Virus record (IMG/VR): IMGVR_UViG_3300045971_000528
Span: 32,001 to 96,000 of that record
DNA: 64,000 bases
Origin: a virus
Strand: one strand, 5' to 3'
The notes under the pieces are model-generated. The model was not told the origin of the DNA. It saw only the letters and a program-made list of their open reading frames with translations, and did not search any database. The translations under genes and the position numbers were made by a program. The stretch's first letter is position 1, and every line of letters starts with the position of its first letter. Below are positions 14,710 through 54,437 of the stretch, in pieces.

Positions 14710-15816
14710 TTAGCAGGCTCTTTCGTCAGGTTGCAGCATCGAGATCAGAGCACCGATGCGGGCTTGTTCGATGCCCTCACCGATTTCCTTGCCGCTCATG
14801 CCATCGGCCACGAACACGGGTGCCAGTTGAGAAGCCAGCGGTTGCGCGAGGCTGAAGCCACCCACCATTTCGCGGGCAGTGAATGTCTGCGCTGTGCCCA
14901 ACTTCGCCGCGCCGTAGCTGATCAGCGTGAACAGCTCCAGGCGCTTTTCATTCTGCCAGCCGATGCGCCGCAGCAATGCACTCAAATCGCGGGCGGTATG
15001 ATTGGCTGTGCGGTTCTGGCTGATGAACTGCGCAAATGCCCAACCTTCGCTACCGCCGACCTGCATCGAGAACGCTTGATCACTTTGCGCGATGGCTGTG
15101 AACGCCAGCACACGTTCGTCCTTGTTGAAGTTCTGGCGAACCCAACCAGCAACATCGGCGAGTCGCAAGGTGTTCATGCCGCGGAAGAAGCTGACGTGCT
15201 GGGTAACCTTCAGCTCATGCAGCATCTTGAAGAAGCGCATGCAGCCCTTGACCGTGCACGTCTTCAGCACCTTGACAATCTCGGCAGCGAAGCGCTCCCA
15301 CGGCAGCTCATTCAGCTCGCCGCGTGCGACCATTTCCTGCGCGAATAACAGCGTGACGTCAGCGACCGTGAAATCCTCGAAGCGACCGTAGAAGCGAGCC
15401 AAACGAACGACGCGCAATGGGTCTTCCTTGAAGGCACTCGACACATGGCGTAGGATGCGCTTGTTGATGTCGTTGATGCCGTCGAACGGGTCGATGAACT
15501 CGCTGGTCTCTTCGTCCATGGCGATCGCATTGATCGTCAAGTCACGACGGCCCAGGTCGTCGGCCAGCGTGACATCTTCGTCGTAGTGCACCGCGAAACC
15601 GTGGTAGCCGGCCCCCGTCTTGCGCTCCGTGCGAGCGAGAGCGTATTCTTCACCCGTCGTGGGATGCAGGAAGACAGGGAAATCGGCACCGACTTGTTCG
15701 TAGCCCATGGCCAGCATCTCTTGCGGGGATGCACCAACGACTACATAGTCACGGTCCTGGATGGAGTTGCCCATCAACAGGTCACGAACTGCGCCACCAA
15801 CGAGGTATTGTTTCAT
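14710..15816 (-). CDS. cca: tRNA nucleotidyltransferase (CCA-adding enzyme, class II)
   Basis: YLVGGAVRD, DRD, EYALARTERK, RRDLTINA, EDPLRVVR motifs. Confidence 0.95.
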   Translation of the reverse strand: MKQYLVGGAVRDLLMGNSIQDRDYVVVGASPQEMLAMGYEQVGADFPVFLHPTTGEEYALARTERKTGAGYHGFAVHYDEDVTLADDLGRRDLTINAIAMDEETSEFIDPFDGINDINKRILRHVSSAFKEDPLRVVRLARFYGRFEDFTVADVTLLFAQEMVARGELNELPWERFAAEIVKVLKTCTVKGCMRFFKMLHELKVTQHVSFFRGMNTLRLADVAGWVRQNFNKDERVLAFTAIAQSDQAFSMQVGGSEGWAFAQFISQNRTANHTARDLSALLRRIGWQNEKRLELFTLISYGAAKLGTAQTFTAREMVGGFSLAQPLASQLAPVFVADGMSGKEIGEGIEQARIGALISMLQPDERAC

Positions 15817-33828: not shown

Positions 33829-33920
33829 TGGAGGAGACGGCGGGATTCGAACCCGCGGATCCTGTGAGGGACCTCAACCTTTCCAGGGTTGTGCAATCAG
33901 CCGGGCTCTGCCACGTCTCC
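33829..33920 (-). tRNA. tRNA-Ser(GGA)
   Basis: CAACC-CTGGAAA-GGTTG; long variable arm; CCA. Confidence 0.9.
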
Positions 33921-33980: not shown

Positions 33981-34214
33981 TTACTTGGCGGCGGAAGCTG
34001 CCTTTGCCGGTACACGTGGGACCACGGTACTTGGGTGAACGTTCTTCAGATGCAGTGCCTTGGCAGCACTGCGTTCACGCTGATACTTCTTGACAGCAGC
34101 CTTGTTCTTGGCTGCTTGGGAAGCTGCAGTAGTTGGTGCTGAAGCTGCAGGTGCTGCCGCTTGAGCGACGAGTGAAGTGGCCAAAAGGGAGGCCAGCAAA
34201 AATGACTTGATCAT
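33981..34214 (-). CDS. small secreted Ala-rich protein
   Basis: Signal peptide; AAS repeats. Confidence 0.6.
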   Translation of the reverse strand: MIKSFLLASLLATSLVAQAAAPAASAPTTAASQAAKNKAAVKKYQRERSAAKALHLKNVHPSTVVPRVPAKAASAAK

Positions 34215-34489
34215 GGAAGATTCCTATTGTTTGGTTGGCAGAGGTGTCTCGCCGCCACCGGCGCGAGTATTTCTACGTTCAACGGCAACCTGCACATCGG
34301 TCTTGCGGCGATTTCCGACCGCGGCGGTGCGTGGAAATCCGTTGAAGGTTCGGTAAGATGTAAAGCTGACACCACAGAGAAGCGCGAGAATCGTCAAATC
34401 TGCTGGTTTCATCTGTTATCTCCATCCATATGCGTATACCTGCCGGTGATATGGTATTTAGCAGGTTCTGCGCATGAAGCACCGTTTGT

Positions 34490-34928
34490 ATTCAAAGTCC
34501 TATAGCCGGGGTTCTGTCTAGACCTGTCATTCATCTACGGCTTTCACCGTCCTCGTGGGGTTTCAATCCCAGTCATAGGTGCAACAACCCGTTCCCTCGG
34601 CGAGCAGCGTCAGCGAGAACTGTTTGTCTTGCTCCAGAATCGTTGTGGTGCAAACGGGGCTAGCCGTGTTTCCTTACTGCAAGTCCGTCATTCACGAGAG
34701 TAAACACAGAACATCTCATGACACTTTGGCGAAACAAACAGCCTCGCGCTTTGAAGCGAGTCCCCTCCCACAGAGCGATCATCCTTGCTCTTCGGAGCCC
34801 CGAACTTCCTCTAGACGGTTAGGTTTGTACCACACGGACTGGTTTCATCGACTTGATAGTCTCCACCAGAGGCTCAGCACAATTATCGTTGTCACCTAAT
34901 TCGTCCAGCGACAGGTCGGACTTTGAAT
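34490..34928 (-). ncRNA. rnpB: RNase P RNA (bacterial type)
   Basis: P1 ATTCAAAGTCC/GGACTTTGAAT, P2 GACCTGTC/GACAGGTC, GAGGAAGTTCGGGGCTCC, GGAGCAAG, TAGATGAATGAC, ACAGAACCCCGGCTAT. Confidence 0.9.
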
Positions 34929-35082
34929 TCTTGTCCAATGGATCAAGTGAATGTCGAAGCATCCGATCACGAATGACCTTGATCTTCGAACTCCCCTTGT
35001 CGCAGTACCAGCAGCTACAATAGATCTTGTGCTTCTGCCGGTTCATCTTGATTCCGCGATCACGGTTCTTTCGATCACTCAT
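34819..35082 (-). CDS. small basic CSCWYC protein overlapping the RNase P RNA 5' part
   Basis: 87-aa ORF with AGGA RBS. Confidence 0.45.
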   Translation of the reverse strand: MSDRKNRDRGIKMNRQKHKIYCSCWYCDKGSSKIKVIRDRMLRHSLDPLDKNSKSDLSLDELGDNDNCAEPLVETIKSMKPVRVVQT

Positions 35083-35514: not shown

Positions 35515-35718
35515 TTAGTTCTTGCAGGTGGGTGTCATGCCTTGAGCATCCACCCACTTCGTTAGGTTGCCGGCACGATCCTTGATCCACTTCTCACCGC
35601 TGATGCAGACGACTGAAGCGTTCGCATCGCGCTTGACCTTTGCTGTGGACATTGCGATGATCAACACCGAGATGGGCACGATAGCTGCGATCACGGCGAT
35701 TAGAAGGGTCTTGTTCAT
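35515..35718 (-). CDS. small membrane-anchored protein
   Basis: N-terminal hydrophobic helix. Confidence 0.55.
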   Translation of the reverse strand: MNKTLLIAVIAAIVPISVLIIAMSTAKVKRDANASVVCISGEKWIKDRAGNLTKWVDAQGMTPTCKN

Positions 35719-53126: not shown

Positions 53127-53201
53127 TGGTGCGCCCGGCGGGAATCGAACCCGCGCCAAAGGATTTAGAATCCCCTACTCTAACCGCTGAGCTACGAGCG
53201 C
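53127..53201 (-). tRNA. amber-suppressor tRNA (anticodon CTA)
   Basis: Canonical numbering gives GGGGA-TT CTA AA-TCCTT; CCA; own TG-G-TATAAT promoter. Confidence 0.8.
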
Positions 53202-53504: not shown

Positions 53505-53815
53505 AACAACAACGGACCCGAAGGTCCGTGTCGGATGACTCAGCGAACTGAGTCACCTACCGTTTGATGACAAGGACCGGGTGTCCTCGCAAAGCTTACG
53601 CCGCTAGGCGCAGTCCTTCGAAGTTAGCATCGTTTGCAGATACTTGGTTTTGCTTGATTTACGGTCATCGCCTACCGAGCGCAAGAAAAGTTACTAGTCT
53701 GTCGGTCGATTACCAGATCACCCCCATCAGAAGAACACCCGCAGATGCGCTTATGGTGGAGGTGGGGGGATTTGAACCCCCGTGTCGCCAGCATTTCTCA
53801 GTCCTCGTTTACGCT
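53505..53815 (-). ncRNA. ssrA: circularly permuted (two-piece) tmRNA, tag ANDANFEGLRLAA
   Basis: T arm plus CACCTCCACCA (ending 53754) precedes GGGGGTGA (starting 53725); G3.U70; tag ORF 53637-53596; terminator. Confidence 0.9.
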
Positions 53816-53816
53816 G

Positions 53817-54437
53817 TTATTGGAAGCCTGGGTTCAGGCGTCCCAATTTCAAATTCTTCGTCCTCTCGTCAGTGATGGCAAGCAGAAAATTGGTAGTTGA
53901 ATCATTATACCACCTTTTCCCGTACGTGCCATTCTTTTTGCACTTTTTGTTTTCGATCCATTCGCTTGACAAAATCCATCCAACAGGTTGATCACCACGA
54001 ACAAACCTCCTTCGGTCGCCATCAGCATCTCGATAGATGCTCGTACCAAATGCAGAATTTGTATCGCCTTGCTGGTGGTTGATCGATGCGTATGTGTTCT
54101 TCCGTTTAGCAACCGCTTCTGGTGTGGAAGCCTGGGCCGTGGCATATTCTTGGTTCTTCGTATTTAGTTTCCAATTAGCAGATGTCGGCTTTTTCCAGGG
54201 TTGATTTGCAGCGACTGCCTTATGACCACCTAGTCTTTGCAGCTCATGCACTAATTCTGACTTCGAGATAATTCCTGCCAAACCTTTCCAAGCCAACTTG
54301 TCCTCTACTCTACCGTGCGTTTCATAGAGCAGCCGGTGTGCTTCGGCGTGTTCAGCAACGGTGAGCAGTTCTATGTTGTCTGGAGAATCTGTTCCACCAG
54401 CATGTGTGGGAATTTTGTGATGACGATGTTTCAACAT
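53817..54437 (-). mobile_element. HNH homing endonuclease
   Basis: HHKIP...GG.D...N...LT..EH..AH; WYN tail; TATAAATA at 54442-54449; AT-richer than flanks. Confidence 0.85.

What the first reader, a model, noticed from the sequence alone, without database searches (positions are those of the whole stretch)
34490..35082. Phage RNase P RNA with a long P3 overlapped by an ORF
Seen: the conserved RNase P segments are present with variants (GAGGAAGUUCGGG; AGAACCCCGGCUAU). The roughly 100-nt P3 region also encodes the C-terminus of an 87-aa ORF. With the CCA enzyme, the phage covers both 5' and 3' tRNA maturation. Inference: independent processing of the tRNA array and the permuted tmRNA.
Basis: partly seen in the sequence, partly recalled or inferred. 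Interest (0 to 1): 0.7.

Follow-up and report, generated by a model that had tools for sequence, protein, structure and literature searches.

The report
Phage RNase P RNA, long P3
A huge uncultured phage carries, inside its block of about 30 tRNA genes, its own 437-base gene for RNase P RNA (the ribozyme that trims new tRNAs); it has an unusually long P3 arm that a small conserved gene reads into, and I found no paper describing this phage-only RNA family.

Summary
Observation confirmed. The RNA runs 34927→34491 on the minus strand (437 nt).

- **Rfam:** RF00010 gives only 32.6 bits (cut-off 100). cmscan placed P1/P2 on a look-alike inside P3.
- **True ends:** P1 is 10 Watson-Crick pairs and P2 is 8. 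Both match the closest relatives (L023, L056).
- **P3:** 99 nt, against about 15–35 nt in relatives. A relative in another pond sample has 10 nt in place of 92 nt of it.
- **Family:** 33 distinct RNAs from viral and metagenome contigs share a signature P4. It is essentially absent from about 185,000 reference genomes.
- **Covariation:** P1–P3, P5–P7, the P6 pseudoknot, P10/P11-like stems, P15/16 and P18 are 95.6% paired, against 34–49% with slid partners.
- **Domains:** The catalytic half is complete. The distal specificity half (~100 nt) is lineage-specific.
- **ORF87:** The first ~50 codons belong to a real small-protein family. The 36 codons inside P1–P3 are read-through, and a relative reads the same bases in another frame.
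- **"Independent" processing is not shown:** No RnpA gene is in this record or in two complete related genomes. 25 of 28 tRNAs already encode CCA.

Earlier agents of this scan reported related miniature phage RNase P RNAs on other genomes. I found no paper describing them.

The parts
34491..34927 (-). Whole RNase P RNA gene (437 nt, RNA position p = 34928 - coordinate)
   Evidence: P1 pairing search; homology of both ends to L023 and L056; Rfam ends in those relatives agree with the P1-based ends
34918..34927 (-). P1 5' strand UUCAAAGUCC; pairs with 34491-34500
   Evidence: 10/10 Watson-Crick pairs. 9 of 10 pairs covary in the family; note that P1 was located by its pairing
34491..34500 (-). 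P1 3' strand GGACUUUGAA
34910..34917 (-). P2 5' strand GACCUGUC; pairs with GACAGGUC at 34521-34528
   Evidence: 8/8 pairs in the window; 7 of 8 pairs show double-sided changes across 28 sequences
34811..34909 (-). P3, 99 nt. The base helix CUGGAC/GUCUAG covaries. An extended hairpin (UUAGGU/ACCUAA and beyond) carries the ORF stop codon UAA at 34819-34821
   Evidence: Fold -31.2 kcal/mol, z -2.99; base helix covariation; family P3 is about 15-35 nt
34814..34905 (-). P3 insert (92 nt) that a relative lacks; single-copy in the record
   Evidence: An X2 DNA contig joins 34813 to 34906 with 10 other letters, giving a GCAA loop; only a self-match in the record
34836..34855 (-). Decoy P1/P2-like strands inside P3 (UCAAGUC...ACCAGUC) that cmscan took for P1/P2
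   Evidence: cmscan alignment compared
34794..34811 (-). CR-I-like string GAGGAAGUUCGGGGCUCC. P4 5' strand at 34798-34806 with a bulged U; P5 5' strand at 34794-34797
34500..34520 (-). J2/4 and CR-V-like string UAGACAGAACCCCGGCUAUAG. P4 3' strand at 34504-34511
34786..34790 (-). P6 pseudoknot 5' strand GAGCA; pairs with UGCUC at 34602-34606
   Evidence: GAGCA/UGCUC, GAACA/UGUUC and GAGUA/UACUC across the family
34762..34785 (-). 5' strands of P7 (34776-34785), the P10-like stem UGUGG (34768-34772) and the P11-like stem GGGG (34762-34765)
34660..34761 (-). Lineage-specific distal specificity-domain cap. It does not align to any relative or to CR-II/CR-III
   Evidence: cmscan deletes it; blastn finds no match; no fold signal for the 129-nt segment that contains it, z -0.04; relatives have 29-92 nt here
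34636..34659 (-). 3' strands of the P11-like stem (CCCC 34656-34659), the conserved loop GUUUGCA, the P10-like stem (CCACA 34644-34648) and P7 (34636-34642)
34583..34635 (-). P5 3' strand, J5/15 (GCAAGACAAACAG), P15, P16 and the L15 loop with the GGU motif (34587-34589)
   Evidence: cmscan alignment; covariation of P15 and P16
34529..34579 (-). Two P18-region hairpins (34551-34579 and 34537-34550, the latter with a GAAA loop), then J18/2 AGAUGAAU (34529-34536)
   Evidence: All pairs of both hairpin stems covary; the CR-IV string is aligned by cmscan
34819..35082 (-). ORF87. Codons 1 to about 50 (34930-35082) are the conserved small basic protein core with an SCxxC motif. Codons 52-87 are read-through into P1-P3
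35093..35186 (-). tRNA-Ser(gct) directly upstream; conserved synteny partner
33829..33920 (-). tRNA-Ser(gga), the next tRNA downstream; conserved synteny partner

Best explanation
This is a genuine phage gene for an RNase P RNA derived from the bacterial type-A ribozyme. It is 437 nt long (34927 to 34491, minus strand) and is co-oriented with about 30 tRNA genes and a permuted tmRNA gene.

Shown:
- The complete catalytic-domain architecture is present: P1, P2, P3, the P4 pseudoknot with a bulged U, P5, the P6 pseudoknot, P7, P15/P16 with the GGU loop that pairs with the tRNA 3'-CCA, two P18-region hairpins, and the J18/2 and J2/4 strings.
- It belongs to a phage-specific clade with a signature P4 (AG(U)UCGGGG / CCCCGGCU).
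- Of the specificity half it keeps only the conserved stem base (P7, a P10-like stem, a conserved internal loop, a P11-like stem). This carries a ~100-nt cap unrelated to that of any relative.
- P3 holds a 92-nt expansion that some close relatives lack.

Inferred:
- The RNA is cut out of the polycistronic tRNA transcript.
- It assembles with a protein, most likely the host's RnpA.
- It removes the 5' leaders of the phage's own CCA-bearing pre-tRNAs and the tmRNA precursor, securing RNase P capacity during infection.
- The long P3 and the distal cap are tolerated peripheral expansions.

The 87-codon ORF is a real small gene. It belongs to a family with a basic, SCxxC-containing core of about 45 aa. 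It has no stop codon of its own before the RNA gene, so its last 36 codons are unselected read-through into P1-P3.
For: - **Rfam:** full-length match, E 6.2e-10 over the record.
- **Relatives:** they score 56-141 bits, and a 300-kb phage genome has one at 255 bits.
- **Family:** 33 distinct full-length sequences in which the unusual 5' and 3' P4 strings co-occur 170-350 nt apart.
- **Covariation:** 80 proposed pairs on 28 sequences are 95.6% paired, against 34-49% with slid partners. 50 pairs have double-sided changes. No shuffle out of 500 reaches the observed values.
- **P11-like stem:** all four pairs form in 20 of 22 sequences, with 10 different strand combinations.
- **True 5' end and long P3:**
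- **P3 indel and variable cap in a relative's DNA:**
- **Context:** the same strand as all the tRNAs; synteny Ser(gct)/Leu(caa) - RNA - Ser(gga) in the window, L023 and L056; in L056 the RNA is flush between tRNAs.
- **Substrates:** 25 of 28 tRNAs encode CCA, which fits the retained GGU loop.
- **RNA libraries:** contigs of three studies hold the conserved core of relatives. This is a weak hint only.
- **ORF:** the profile of the core finds 7 more proteins at E 3e-15 to 6e-8. Tails differ, and P0002 reads the same P3 bases in another frame. In L011 and L062 the homologous ORF ends inside a tRNA instead.
- **Precedent:** a C-domain alone cleaves pre-tRNA (PMC5839562, abstract).
Against: - The Rfam score is far below the gathering score.
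- CR-II/CR-III, P8/P9 and P12-P14 are not recognisable. In known enzymes these read the tRNA elbow.
- The distal cap has no fold signal.
- No comparative support exists for the distal part of P3, because no independent sequence was available.
- P4 could not be tested by covariation, because my search patterns fixed its 3' strand.
- No promoter or terminator marks the gene.
- No catalytic assay exists, and there are no raw RNA reads of this phage.
- No protein partner has been identified.
Confidence: 0.78

Rival explanations
1. It is a decaying or non-catalytic RNase P RNA derivative. The catalytic-looking core persists, but the copy in this phage, with its foreign specificity cap and 92-nt P3 insert, is inactive. 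Alternatively it acts as a decoy that titrates host RnpA or pre-tRNAs.
For: 32.6 bits only. The cap is unalignable and has no fold signal. The P3 insert is absent in relatives. One family member (L006) is clearly disrupted.
Against: All core helices are perfectly paired in the window. Compensatory differences from L023 and L056 occur in P1, P2 and P18. The universally conserved strings are intact, and the conserved synteny is kept. P3 and the distal specificity domain are peripheral sites that vary in length across the whole family.
Confidence: 0.12
2. It is a retargeted ribozyme. The hypervariable specificity cap, and possibly P3, redirect the catalytic core from ordinary tRNAs to phage-specific substrates, such as odd tRNA-like RNAs of the array, the two-piece tmRNA or mRNAs.
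For: Cap length ranges from 10 to 130 nt between members and differs even between close relatives. The window contains unusual tRNA-shaped genes and a permuted tmRNA.
Against: No complementarity or covariation links the cap to any candidate substrate. The GGU loop and encoded CCA fit ordinary tRNA substrates. Members with almost no cap (L007, L052) sit in ordinary tRNA arrays.
Confidence: 0.08
3. There is true dual coding. The 36 codons inside P1-P3 are a functional part of the ORF87 protein, and the P3 expansion exists to encode them.
For: The ORF is open through P1-P3. Gene callers predicted it. Several relatives also read into the RNA.
Against: P0002 reads the same P3 nucleotides in a different frame. 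Tails differ in length and sequence. L023 reads through P4 into P7, and L011 and L062 read into a tRNA. Members such as P0005 and P0008 stop soon after the core.
Confidence: 0.04
4. The RNA is the 366-nt molecule that cmscan reports (34855-34490), with a short P3, and the upstream 72 nt are only ORF sequence.
For: The cmscan alignment. The internal strands can pair imperfectly with the 3' strands.
Against: The upstream strands pair perfectly (10 and 8 bp, against 7 with a bulge and 6 with a mismatch). They are identical or compensated in L023 and L056, and they sit where Rfam places P1 in those relatives.
Confidence: 0.04

Closest known systems
Bacterial class A RNase P RNA (Rfam RF00010; E. 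coli M1 RNA / rnpB)
   Same: P1-P7, the P4 and P6 pseudoknots, P15/P16 with the GGU loop, the P18 region, and the CR-I, CR-IV and CR-V strings. The presumed substrates are pre-tRNAs with encoded CCA.
   Different: It is encoded by a phage. The P4 register is shifted, with one fewer A-U pair proximal to the bulged U and one more G-C pair distal. No P8/P9, P12-P14 or CR-II/III can be recognised. P3 is 99 nt. It scores 32.6 bits against a cut-off of 100. No rnpA gene is found in the partial record or in two complete related genomes.
Natural and engineered minimal RNase P RNAs: Pyrobaculum/Thermoproteaceae type T (Lai et al. 2010 as cited in PMC5839562; PMC3579882) and E. coli C-domain-only RNA (PMC5839562)
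   Same: The catalytic domain is kept while the specificity domain is reduced or replaced. This precedent shows that such RNAs can still cleave pre-tRNA.
   Different: Those are archaeal or laboratory constructs. Here the lineage is bacterial-type and viral. This member has not lost the specificity-half length, but has replaced it with unrelated sequence on a conserved stem.
Phage-encoded miniature RNase P RNAs reported earlier in this scan (e1-371790, e1-5790475, e1-5972170, e1-5991847, e1-5988241)
   Same: Location in phage tRNA clusters, a complete catalytic half, a rewritten P4 and a stub-like specificity half. My family includes 236-258-nt members (L052, L007, the G002 copy).
   Different: The window's RNA is about twice as long, with a ~100-nt lineage-specific cap and a 92-nt P3 expansion, and a small gene reads into its 5' end. 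I did not compare sequences with those earlier loci directly.
P3 domain of eukaryotic RNase P / RNase MRP RNAs (recalled from general knowledge; not tested here)
   Same: An enlarged helix-loop-helix P3 on an otherwise conserved core.
   Different: In eukaryotes P3 is a conserved protein-binding platform (Pop6/Pop7). Here the expansion is present or absent between close relatives, and no binding partner is known.
Theta (minimal HDV-like) ribozymes next to phage tRNAs (bioRxiv 10.1101/2023.06.13.544163)
   Same: A phage-encoded ribozyme in tRNA regions, proposed to free phage tRNA maturation from host enzymes.
   Different: A different ribozyme class, cis-cleaving, proposed to act at tRNA 3' trailers rather than 5' leaders.

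Membership tests
Bacterial RNase P RNA class A (RF00010) | Score at or above Rfam's gathering score (100 bits) | tested here: not met
   32.6 bits, E 2.2e-8; no hit at gathering. Part of the deficit comes from the P3 insert and the mis-placed P1/P2.
Bacterial RNase P RNA class A (RF00010) | P4 long-range helix between the CR-I and CR-V strings, with a bulged U | tested here: met
   AG(U)UCGGGG at 34806-34798 pairs with CCCCGGCU at 34511-34504 (8 bp plus a bulged U). Both strands differ from the bacterial consensus in a compensating way (an extra G and an extra C) and co-occur in about 40 contigs. The helix is invariant within the family, so no internal covariation is available.
Bacterial RNase P RNA class A (RF00010) | P1-P2-P3 stack closing the molecule | tested here: met
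   10, 8 and 6 bp in the window. 9/10, 7/8 and 4/6 pairs have double-sided changes across 28 sequences. P1 was located by its pairing.
Bacterial RNase P RNA class A (RF00010) | P6 pseudoknot (J5/7 with the P16/17 loop), typical of type A | tested here: met
   GAGCA/UGCUC in the window, GAACA/UGUUC and GAGUA/UACUC in relatives; 93.6% of cells paired.
Bacterial RNase P RNA class A (RF00010) | P15 / L15 internal loop with the GGU motif that pairs with the tRNA 3'-CCA | tested here: met
   CGGGUUG is aligned to the model's CGGGUAG. P15 and P16 covary. 25 of 28 tRNAs encode CCA. The pairing itself was not assayed.
Bacterial RNase P RNA class A (RF00010) | CR-IV (J18/2 AGAUGAAUG) and J2/4 ACAGAA | tested here: met
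   UAGAUGAAUGAC and ACAGAA are aligned with high posterior probability and are nearly invariant in A3.
Bacterial RNase P RNA class A (RF00010) | Specificity domain with P8, P9, P10-P14 and the CR-II/CR-III strings | tested here: not met
   cmscan deletes these model positions. Only P7, a P10-like stem and a P11-like stem with a conserved internal loop are supported. The distal 102 nt are unalignable.
Bacterial RNase P RNA class A (RF00010) | Endonucleolytic removal of pre-tRNA 5' leaders | not testable with these tools
   No assay is possible. C-domain-only activity is documented for E. coli RNA (PMC5839562).
Bacterial RNase P holoenzyme | Partner protein RnpA (PF00825) | tested here: inconclusive
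   Absent from the 106-kb record, which is 29% complete, and from five related viral records including two complete ones. The host protein may serve.
Phage-specific RNase P RNA clade (defined here) | Signature strings GAGGAAGUUCGGGG and ACAGAACCCCGGCUAUAG 170-350 nt apart; rare outside viral or metagenome contigs | tested here: met
   Among about 185,000 reference genomes there were only 3 pattern hits. Two have no RNase P RNA there, and one (L059) is a phage-type copy on a 12.7-kb MAG contig.
Phage-specific RNase P RNA clade (defined here) | Location in tRNA / tmRNA gene regions | tested here: met
   The window has 30 tRNAs and a tmRNA on the same strand. 18 of 29 family loci have tRNA or tmRNA genes in the fetched flanks, and many of the rest are short contigs.
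Small basic SCxxC protein family (defined here) | A core of about 45 aa with invariant R15, K17, S23, C24, C27 and K33 (window numbering) | tested here: met
   Alignment A6 of 11 members. The window's copy is the most divergent (21-40% identity). There are no Pfam or PHROG hits.

The most novel reading that the evidence does not exclude
The ~45-aa basic SCxxC protein is a phage-specific protein partner of the ribozyme, standing in for RnpA. It is encoded within a few hundred bases of the phage RNase P RNA in every locus I could see, and in this subclade it runs straight into P1-P3. Its production would be coupled to RNA maturation. Ribosomes reading into P1-P3 would compete with folding. Cutting out the RNA 5' end would leave a stop-less message, a natural substrate for the phage's own tmRNA. 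The expanded P3 would be the binding or regulatory platform.
Probability: 0.07. Interest if true: 0.85.

Novelty: new variant of a known kind. Interest (0 to 1): 0.7.

Why it matters
RNase P RNA is regarded as a cellular and organellar housekeeping ribozyme. I found no paper describing a virus-encoded one in five full-text searches.

A phage clade of such RNAs would be a natural experiment on several points:
- **Domain requirements:** it keeps the catalytic half, has a compensated change in the P4 active-site helix, and has a freely replaceable specificity half. This shows how much of the ribozyme is needed in vivo.
- **Translation takeover:** it adds a new item to the translation-related toolkit of huge phages, alongside tRNAs, tmRNA and the CCA enzyme.
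- **Engineering:** it supplies compact ribozyme scaffolds, with members from 236 to 437 nt.
- **Annotation:** Rfam's threshold misses most members, cmscan mis-places the 5' end here, and gene callers fill the gap with an ORF.

This particular member shows that P3 tolerates a 92-nt expansion and that a protein gene can terminate inside a ribozyme gene.

Tried and rejected
- **cmscan's boundaries (34855-34490).** Rejected in favour of 34927-34491.
- **Single-sequence folds.** The MFE fold of the 376-nt version gave z +1.25, which is uninformative because of the pseudoknots. The fold of the specificity segment gave z -0.04.
- **Promoter and terminator scan.** It found no sigma-70-like promoter. 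The only terminator-like hits are a hairpin inside the RNA.
- **GenBank phages.** blastn with the window's RNA found only tRNA-Ser matches. The main-group RNA found nothing.
- **Chance matches.** L009, L057 and L058 are chance matches to the 3' pattern with no RNase P RNA.
- **Slips of my own.** My first two regular expressions for the 5' motif, and the pattern, were mis-written and were redone.
- **ORF comparisons.** BLASTP of ORF87 against the L023 ORF found only the RNA-encoded stretch. Pfam and PHROGs gave nothing. The upstream DNA of the window and L023 is unalignable at 45% identity.
- I could not fetch the contigs of P0002-P0009, so I had no second sequence for covariation in the distal P3.
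- **Covariance model.** I did not build a family model. A model of about 340 positions exceeds the calibration limit, and the alignment exceeds 400 columns.
- **RNA libraries.** Contigs cover only conserved core pieces of relatives, not this phage. There was no cover over the flanks or the P3 insert in the RNA runs. I treat this as a weak hint of expression of the family, not as evidence for this gene.
- **P3 insert as a dispersed repeat.** Rejected, because it has only a self-match in the record.
- **Cofactor idea.** Strict linkage of the small ORF to the RNA as evidence for a cofactor was weakened, because the loci are related and share synteny.

Full report
**1. What the sequence shows**

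The window is part of a 106-kb IMG/VR virus record, estimated 29% complete. It is therefore a huge phage. It carries about 30 tRNA genes and a permuted tmRNA, all on the minus strand.

At Rfam's gathering thresholds nothing is reported at 34490-35082. With permissive filters, RF00010 (bacterial RNase P class A) matches 34490-34855 on the minus strand over the whole model. The score is only 32.6 bits against a cut-off of 100 (E 2.2e-8; 6.2e-10 over the record).

**2. A family, not a one-off**

The unusual P4 strings retrieved further contigs from IMG/VR and from JGI/ENA metagenomes.
- In 42 stretches (33 distinct sequences) the 5' string GAGGAAGUUCGGGG and the 3' string ACAGAACCCCGGCUAUAG lie 170-350 nt apart.
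- Rfam scores these relatives at 56-141 bits. A 300-kb phage genome with terminal repeats has a canonical copy at 255 bits.
- Most copies sit among tRNA or tmRNA genes.
- In about 185,000 reference bacterial and archaeal genomes the 3' pattern hit three times. Two hits have no RNase P RNA there. The third is a phage-type copy on a short MAG contig.

**3. True boundaries and the long P3**

The alignment with the closest relatives, L023 and L056, showed that their 5' ends match the window about 75 nt upstream of cmscan's start.

I searched each sequence for the strand that pairs with its 3' tail.
- In the window this gave UUCAAAGUCC at 34927-34918, which pairs 10/10 Watson-Crick with 34500-34491.
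- It lies 118 nt before P4, against 32-56 nt in 27 of the 28 other distinct relatives. The exception, L002, is an artefact of that search.
- P2 (GACCUGUC/GACAGGUC) follows directly.

cmscan had used look-alike strands inside P3. Rfam's ends for L023 (1378-1688) and L056 (4019-4372) agree with the P1-based ends.

P3 is therefore 34909-34811, 99 nt. It folds as one long hairpin (-31.2 kcal/mol, z -2.99).
- A DNA contig from another pond sample joins 34813 to 34906 with 10 other letters, giving a GCAA loop. The same sample also holds the window's own version.
- L023 has a 6-bp P3 with a GAAA loop.
- The insert is single-copy in the record.

It is an indel between relatives.

**4. Secondary structure by covariation**

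I projected my helix assignments onto alignment A3 (28 sequences).
- The 80 pairs are 95.6% paired, against 34-49% with slid partners.
- 50 pairs have double-sided changes.
- The covariation score is 0.326, against 0.05-0.06 with slid partners.
- No shuffle out of 500 reaches the observed values.

Supported elements are P1, P2, the P3 base, P5, the P6 pseudoknot, P7, a P10-like stem, P15, P16 and two P18-region hairpins.

Two caveats apply. P1 was located by its pairing. P4 is invariant, because my patterns fixed its 3' strand. Even so, relative to the bacterial consensus the two P4 strands carry a compensating extra G and extra C.

A further P11-like stem just inside the P10-like stem forms all four pairs in 20 of 22 sequences, with 10 different strand combinations. 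It is closed by a conserved internal loop.

Distal to it, sequences are unrelated and span 10-130 nt between the stem's strands. In the window that span is 110 nt, of which the unaligned cap is 102 nt (34761-34660). The 129-nt segment that contains the cap has no fold signal.

cmscan finds no CR-II/CR-III, P8/P9 or P12-P14. The catalytic half is therefore complete, and the specificity half is a conserved stalk with a replaceable cap.

**5. Context and likely working**
- Synteny Ser(gct)/Leu(caa) - RNA - Ser(gga) is shared by the window, L023 and L056. In L056 the RNA lies 3 nt from the tRNA on each side. This suggests release by tRNA-processing cuts (inference).
- 25 of 28 tRNAs encode CCA, which matches the retained L15 GGU motif.
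- No RnpA-type protein is found in the record. None is found in five related viral records either, two of them complete. All five have one RNase P-like RNA.
- A CCA-adding-family gene is present at about 15448-15807.
- A C-domain alone can cleave pre-tRNA (PMC5839562), and natural minimal forms exist (Lai et al. 2010 as cited there; PMC3579882).

I infer a phage-supplied catalytic RNA that works with a protein, probably the host's, on the phage's own tRNA and tmRNA precursors.

Contigs from three RNA libraries hold the conserved core of relatives with 29-58 nt in place of the cap. This is only a weak hint that the family is expressed.

**6. The ORF**

ORF87 (34819-35082) overlaps the RNA by 109 nt. 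Outside that stretch it has no BLASTP similarity to the L023 ORF.

A database hit, P0002, combines an L023-like N-terminus with the window's P3-encoded stretch. Its tail SPCGTNL(I)V is the window's P3 sequence read in a different frame. The overlapping part is therefore constrained as RNA, not as protein.

The N-terminal ~45 residues do form a real family.
- A three-sequence profile found seven more proteins, at E 3e-15 to 6e-8.
- Their substitutions are of the amino-acid type, with invariant R15, K17, S23, C24, C27 and K33.
- Third-position GC is highest in the ORF frame.

Members either stop soon after the core or read into an RNase P RNA. The EEVRGSEEQG tails are the P4 strand read as codons. 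In L011 and L062 the ORF reads into tRNA-Ser(gga) instead. There the RNase P RNA lies about 290-400 nt upstream.

The ORF is thus a genuine small gene that regularly terminates inside the next structured-RNA gene. Its function is unknown. Its linkage to the RNA may only reflect shared synteny.

**7. Comparison and novelty**

Five full-text searches found no paper describing a phage- or virus-encoded RNase P RNA. A sixth showed that the two held papers naming phage MaAM05 mention it once each; I did not read them.

Earlier agents of this scan reported 'phage-encoded miniature RNase P RNAs' on other genomes. My family includes such short members (L007 at 256 nt, L052 at 236 nt, the G002 copy at 258 nt). 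The window's member is the longest I saw.

It fails membership of RF00010 on score and on the specificity domain, and it meets every catalytic-domain feature I could test. I class it as a new variant of a known kind.

**8. Limits**
- There is no biochemical or transcript-end evidence.
- Distal P3 and the cap lack comparative support.
- The record is incomplete.

Noticed in passing
L006:7340-8190 (IMGVR_UViG_3300048580_000994): Only the last ~85 nt of a family RNase P RNA (second P18-region hairpin, J18/2, P2, P4 and P1 3' strands) are present. They lie directly behind a GIY-YIG-type homing-endonuclease-like ORF. No 5' half was found anywhere in the 11.5-kb locus, so this copy appears to be disrupted.
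   Followed up: partly
L064:1369-1768 (Microcystis phage MaAM05, MW495066.1:115284-115683): A deposited 274-kb phage genome has a full class-A RNase P RNA (251.8 bits) in an unannotated gap between hypothetical genes. The two papers in the library that name this phage mention it only once each.
   Followed up: partly
L007:813-1068; L052:2201-2436; L062:953-1210: Family members of only 236-258 nt in which the specificity half is reduced to a short stub. One lies in a complete 358-kb phage genome.
   Followed up: partly
window 53127-53201 (-); also L003:4784-4859, L005:4907-4981, L033:5698-5773, L055:348-422: tRNAs with stop-codon-reading anticodons (CTA, which ARAGORN calls Pyl; TTA in L055) recur near the permuted tmRNA in the window and its relatives. 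This hints at stop-codon suppression or recoding in these phages.
   Followed up: no
window 53513-53866 (-): ARAGORN's tag peptide for the window's permuted tmRNA (DDRKSSKTKYLQTMLTSKDCA) is unlike the well-conserved tags of relatives (...LDLSALA[D/E]SDM.L.A). It may be mis-predicted or truly divergent.
   Followed up: no
window 33981-34412 (-) and 35515-35718 (-): Small ORFs with signal-peptide-like N-termini (62, 77 and 67 aa) are interspersed between the tRNA genes, on the same strand as the array.
   Followed up: no
window 34836-34855 (-): Inside the P3 insert, the strands UCAAGUC and ACCAGUC resemble the true P1 and P2 5' strands and can pair imperfectly with the same 3' partners. This could be chance, a partial duplication or an alternative fold.
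   Followed up: partly
L059 (MAG contig JANWKP010000389.1, labelled Nitrososphaerales archaeon): A 12.7-kb contig binned in an archaeal MAG carries a phage-type RNase P RNA (64.8 bits). It shares the GAGGAAGTTCGGGGCTGCAT 5' P4 string and the P11-like/loop strings with metagenome phage loci such as L027. It is probably a mis-binned phage contig.
   Followed up: no
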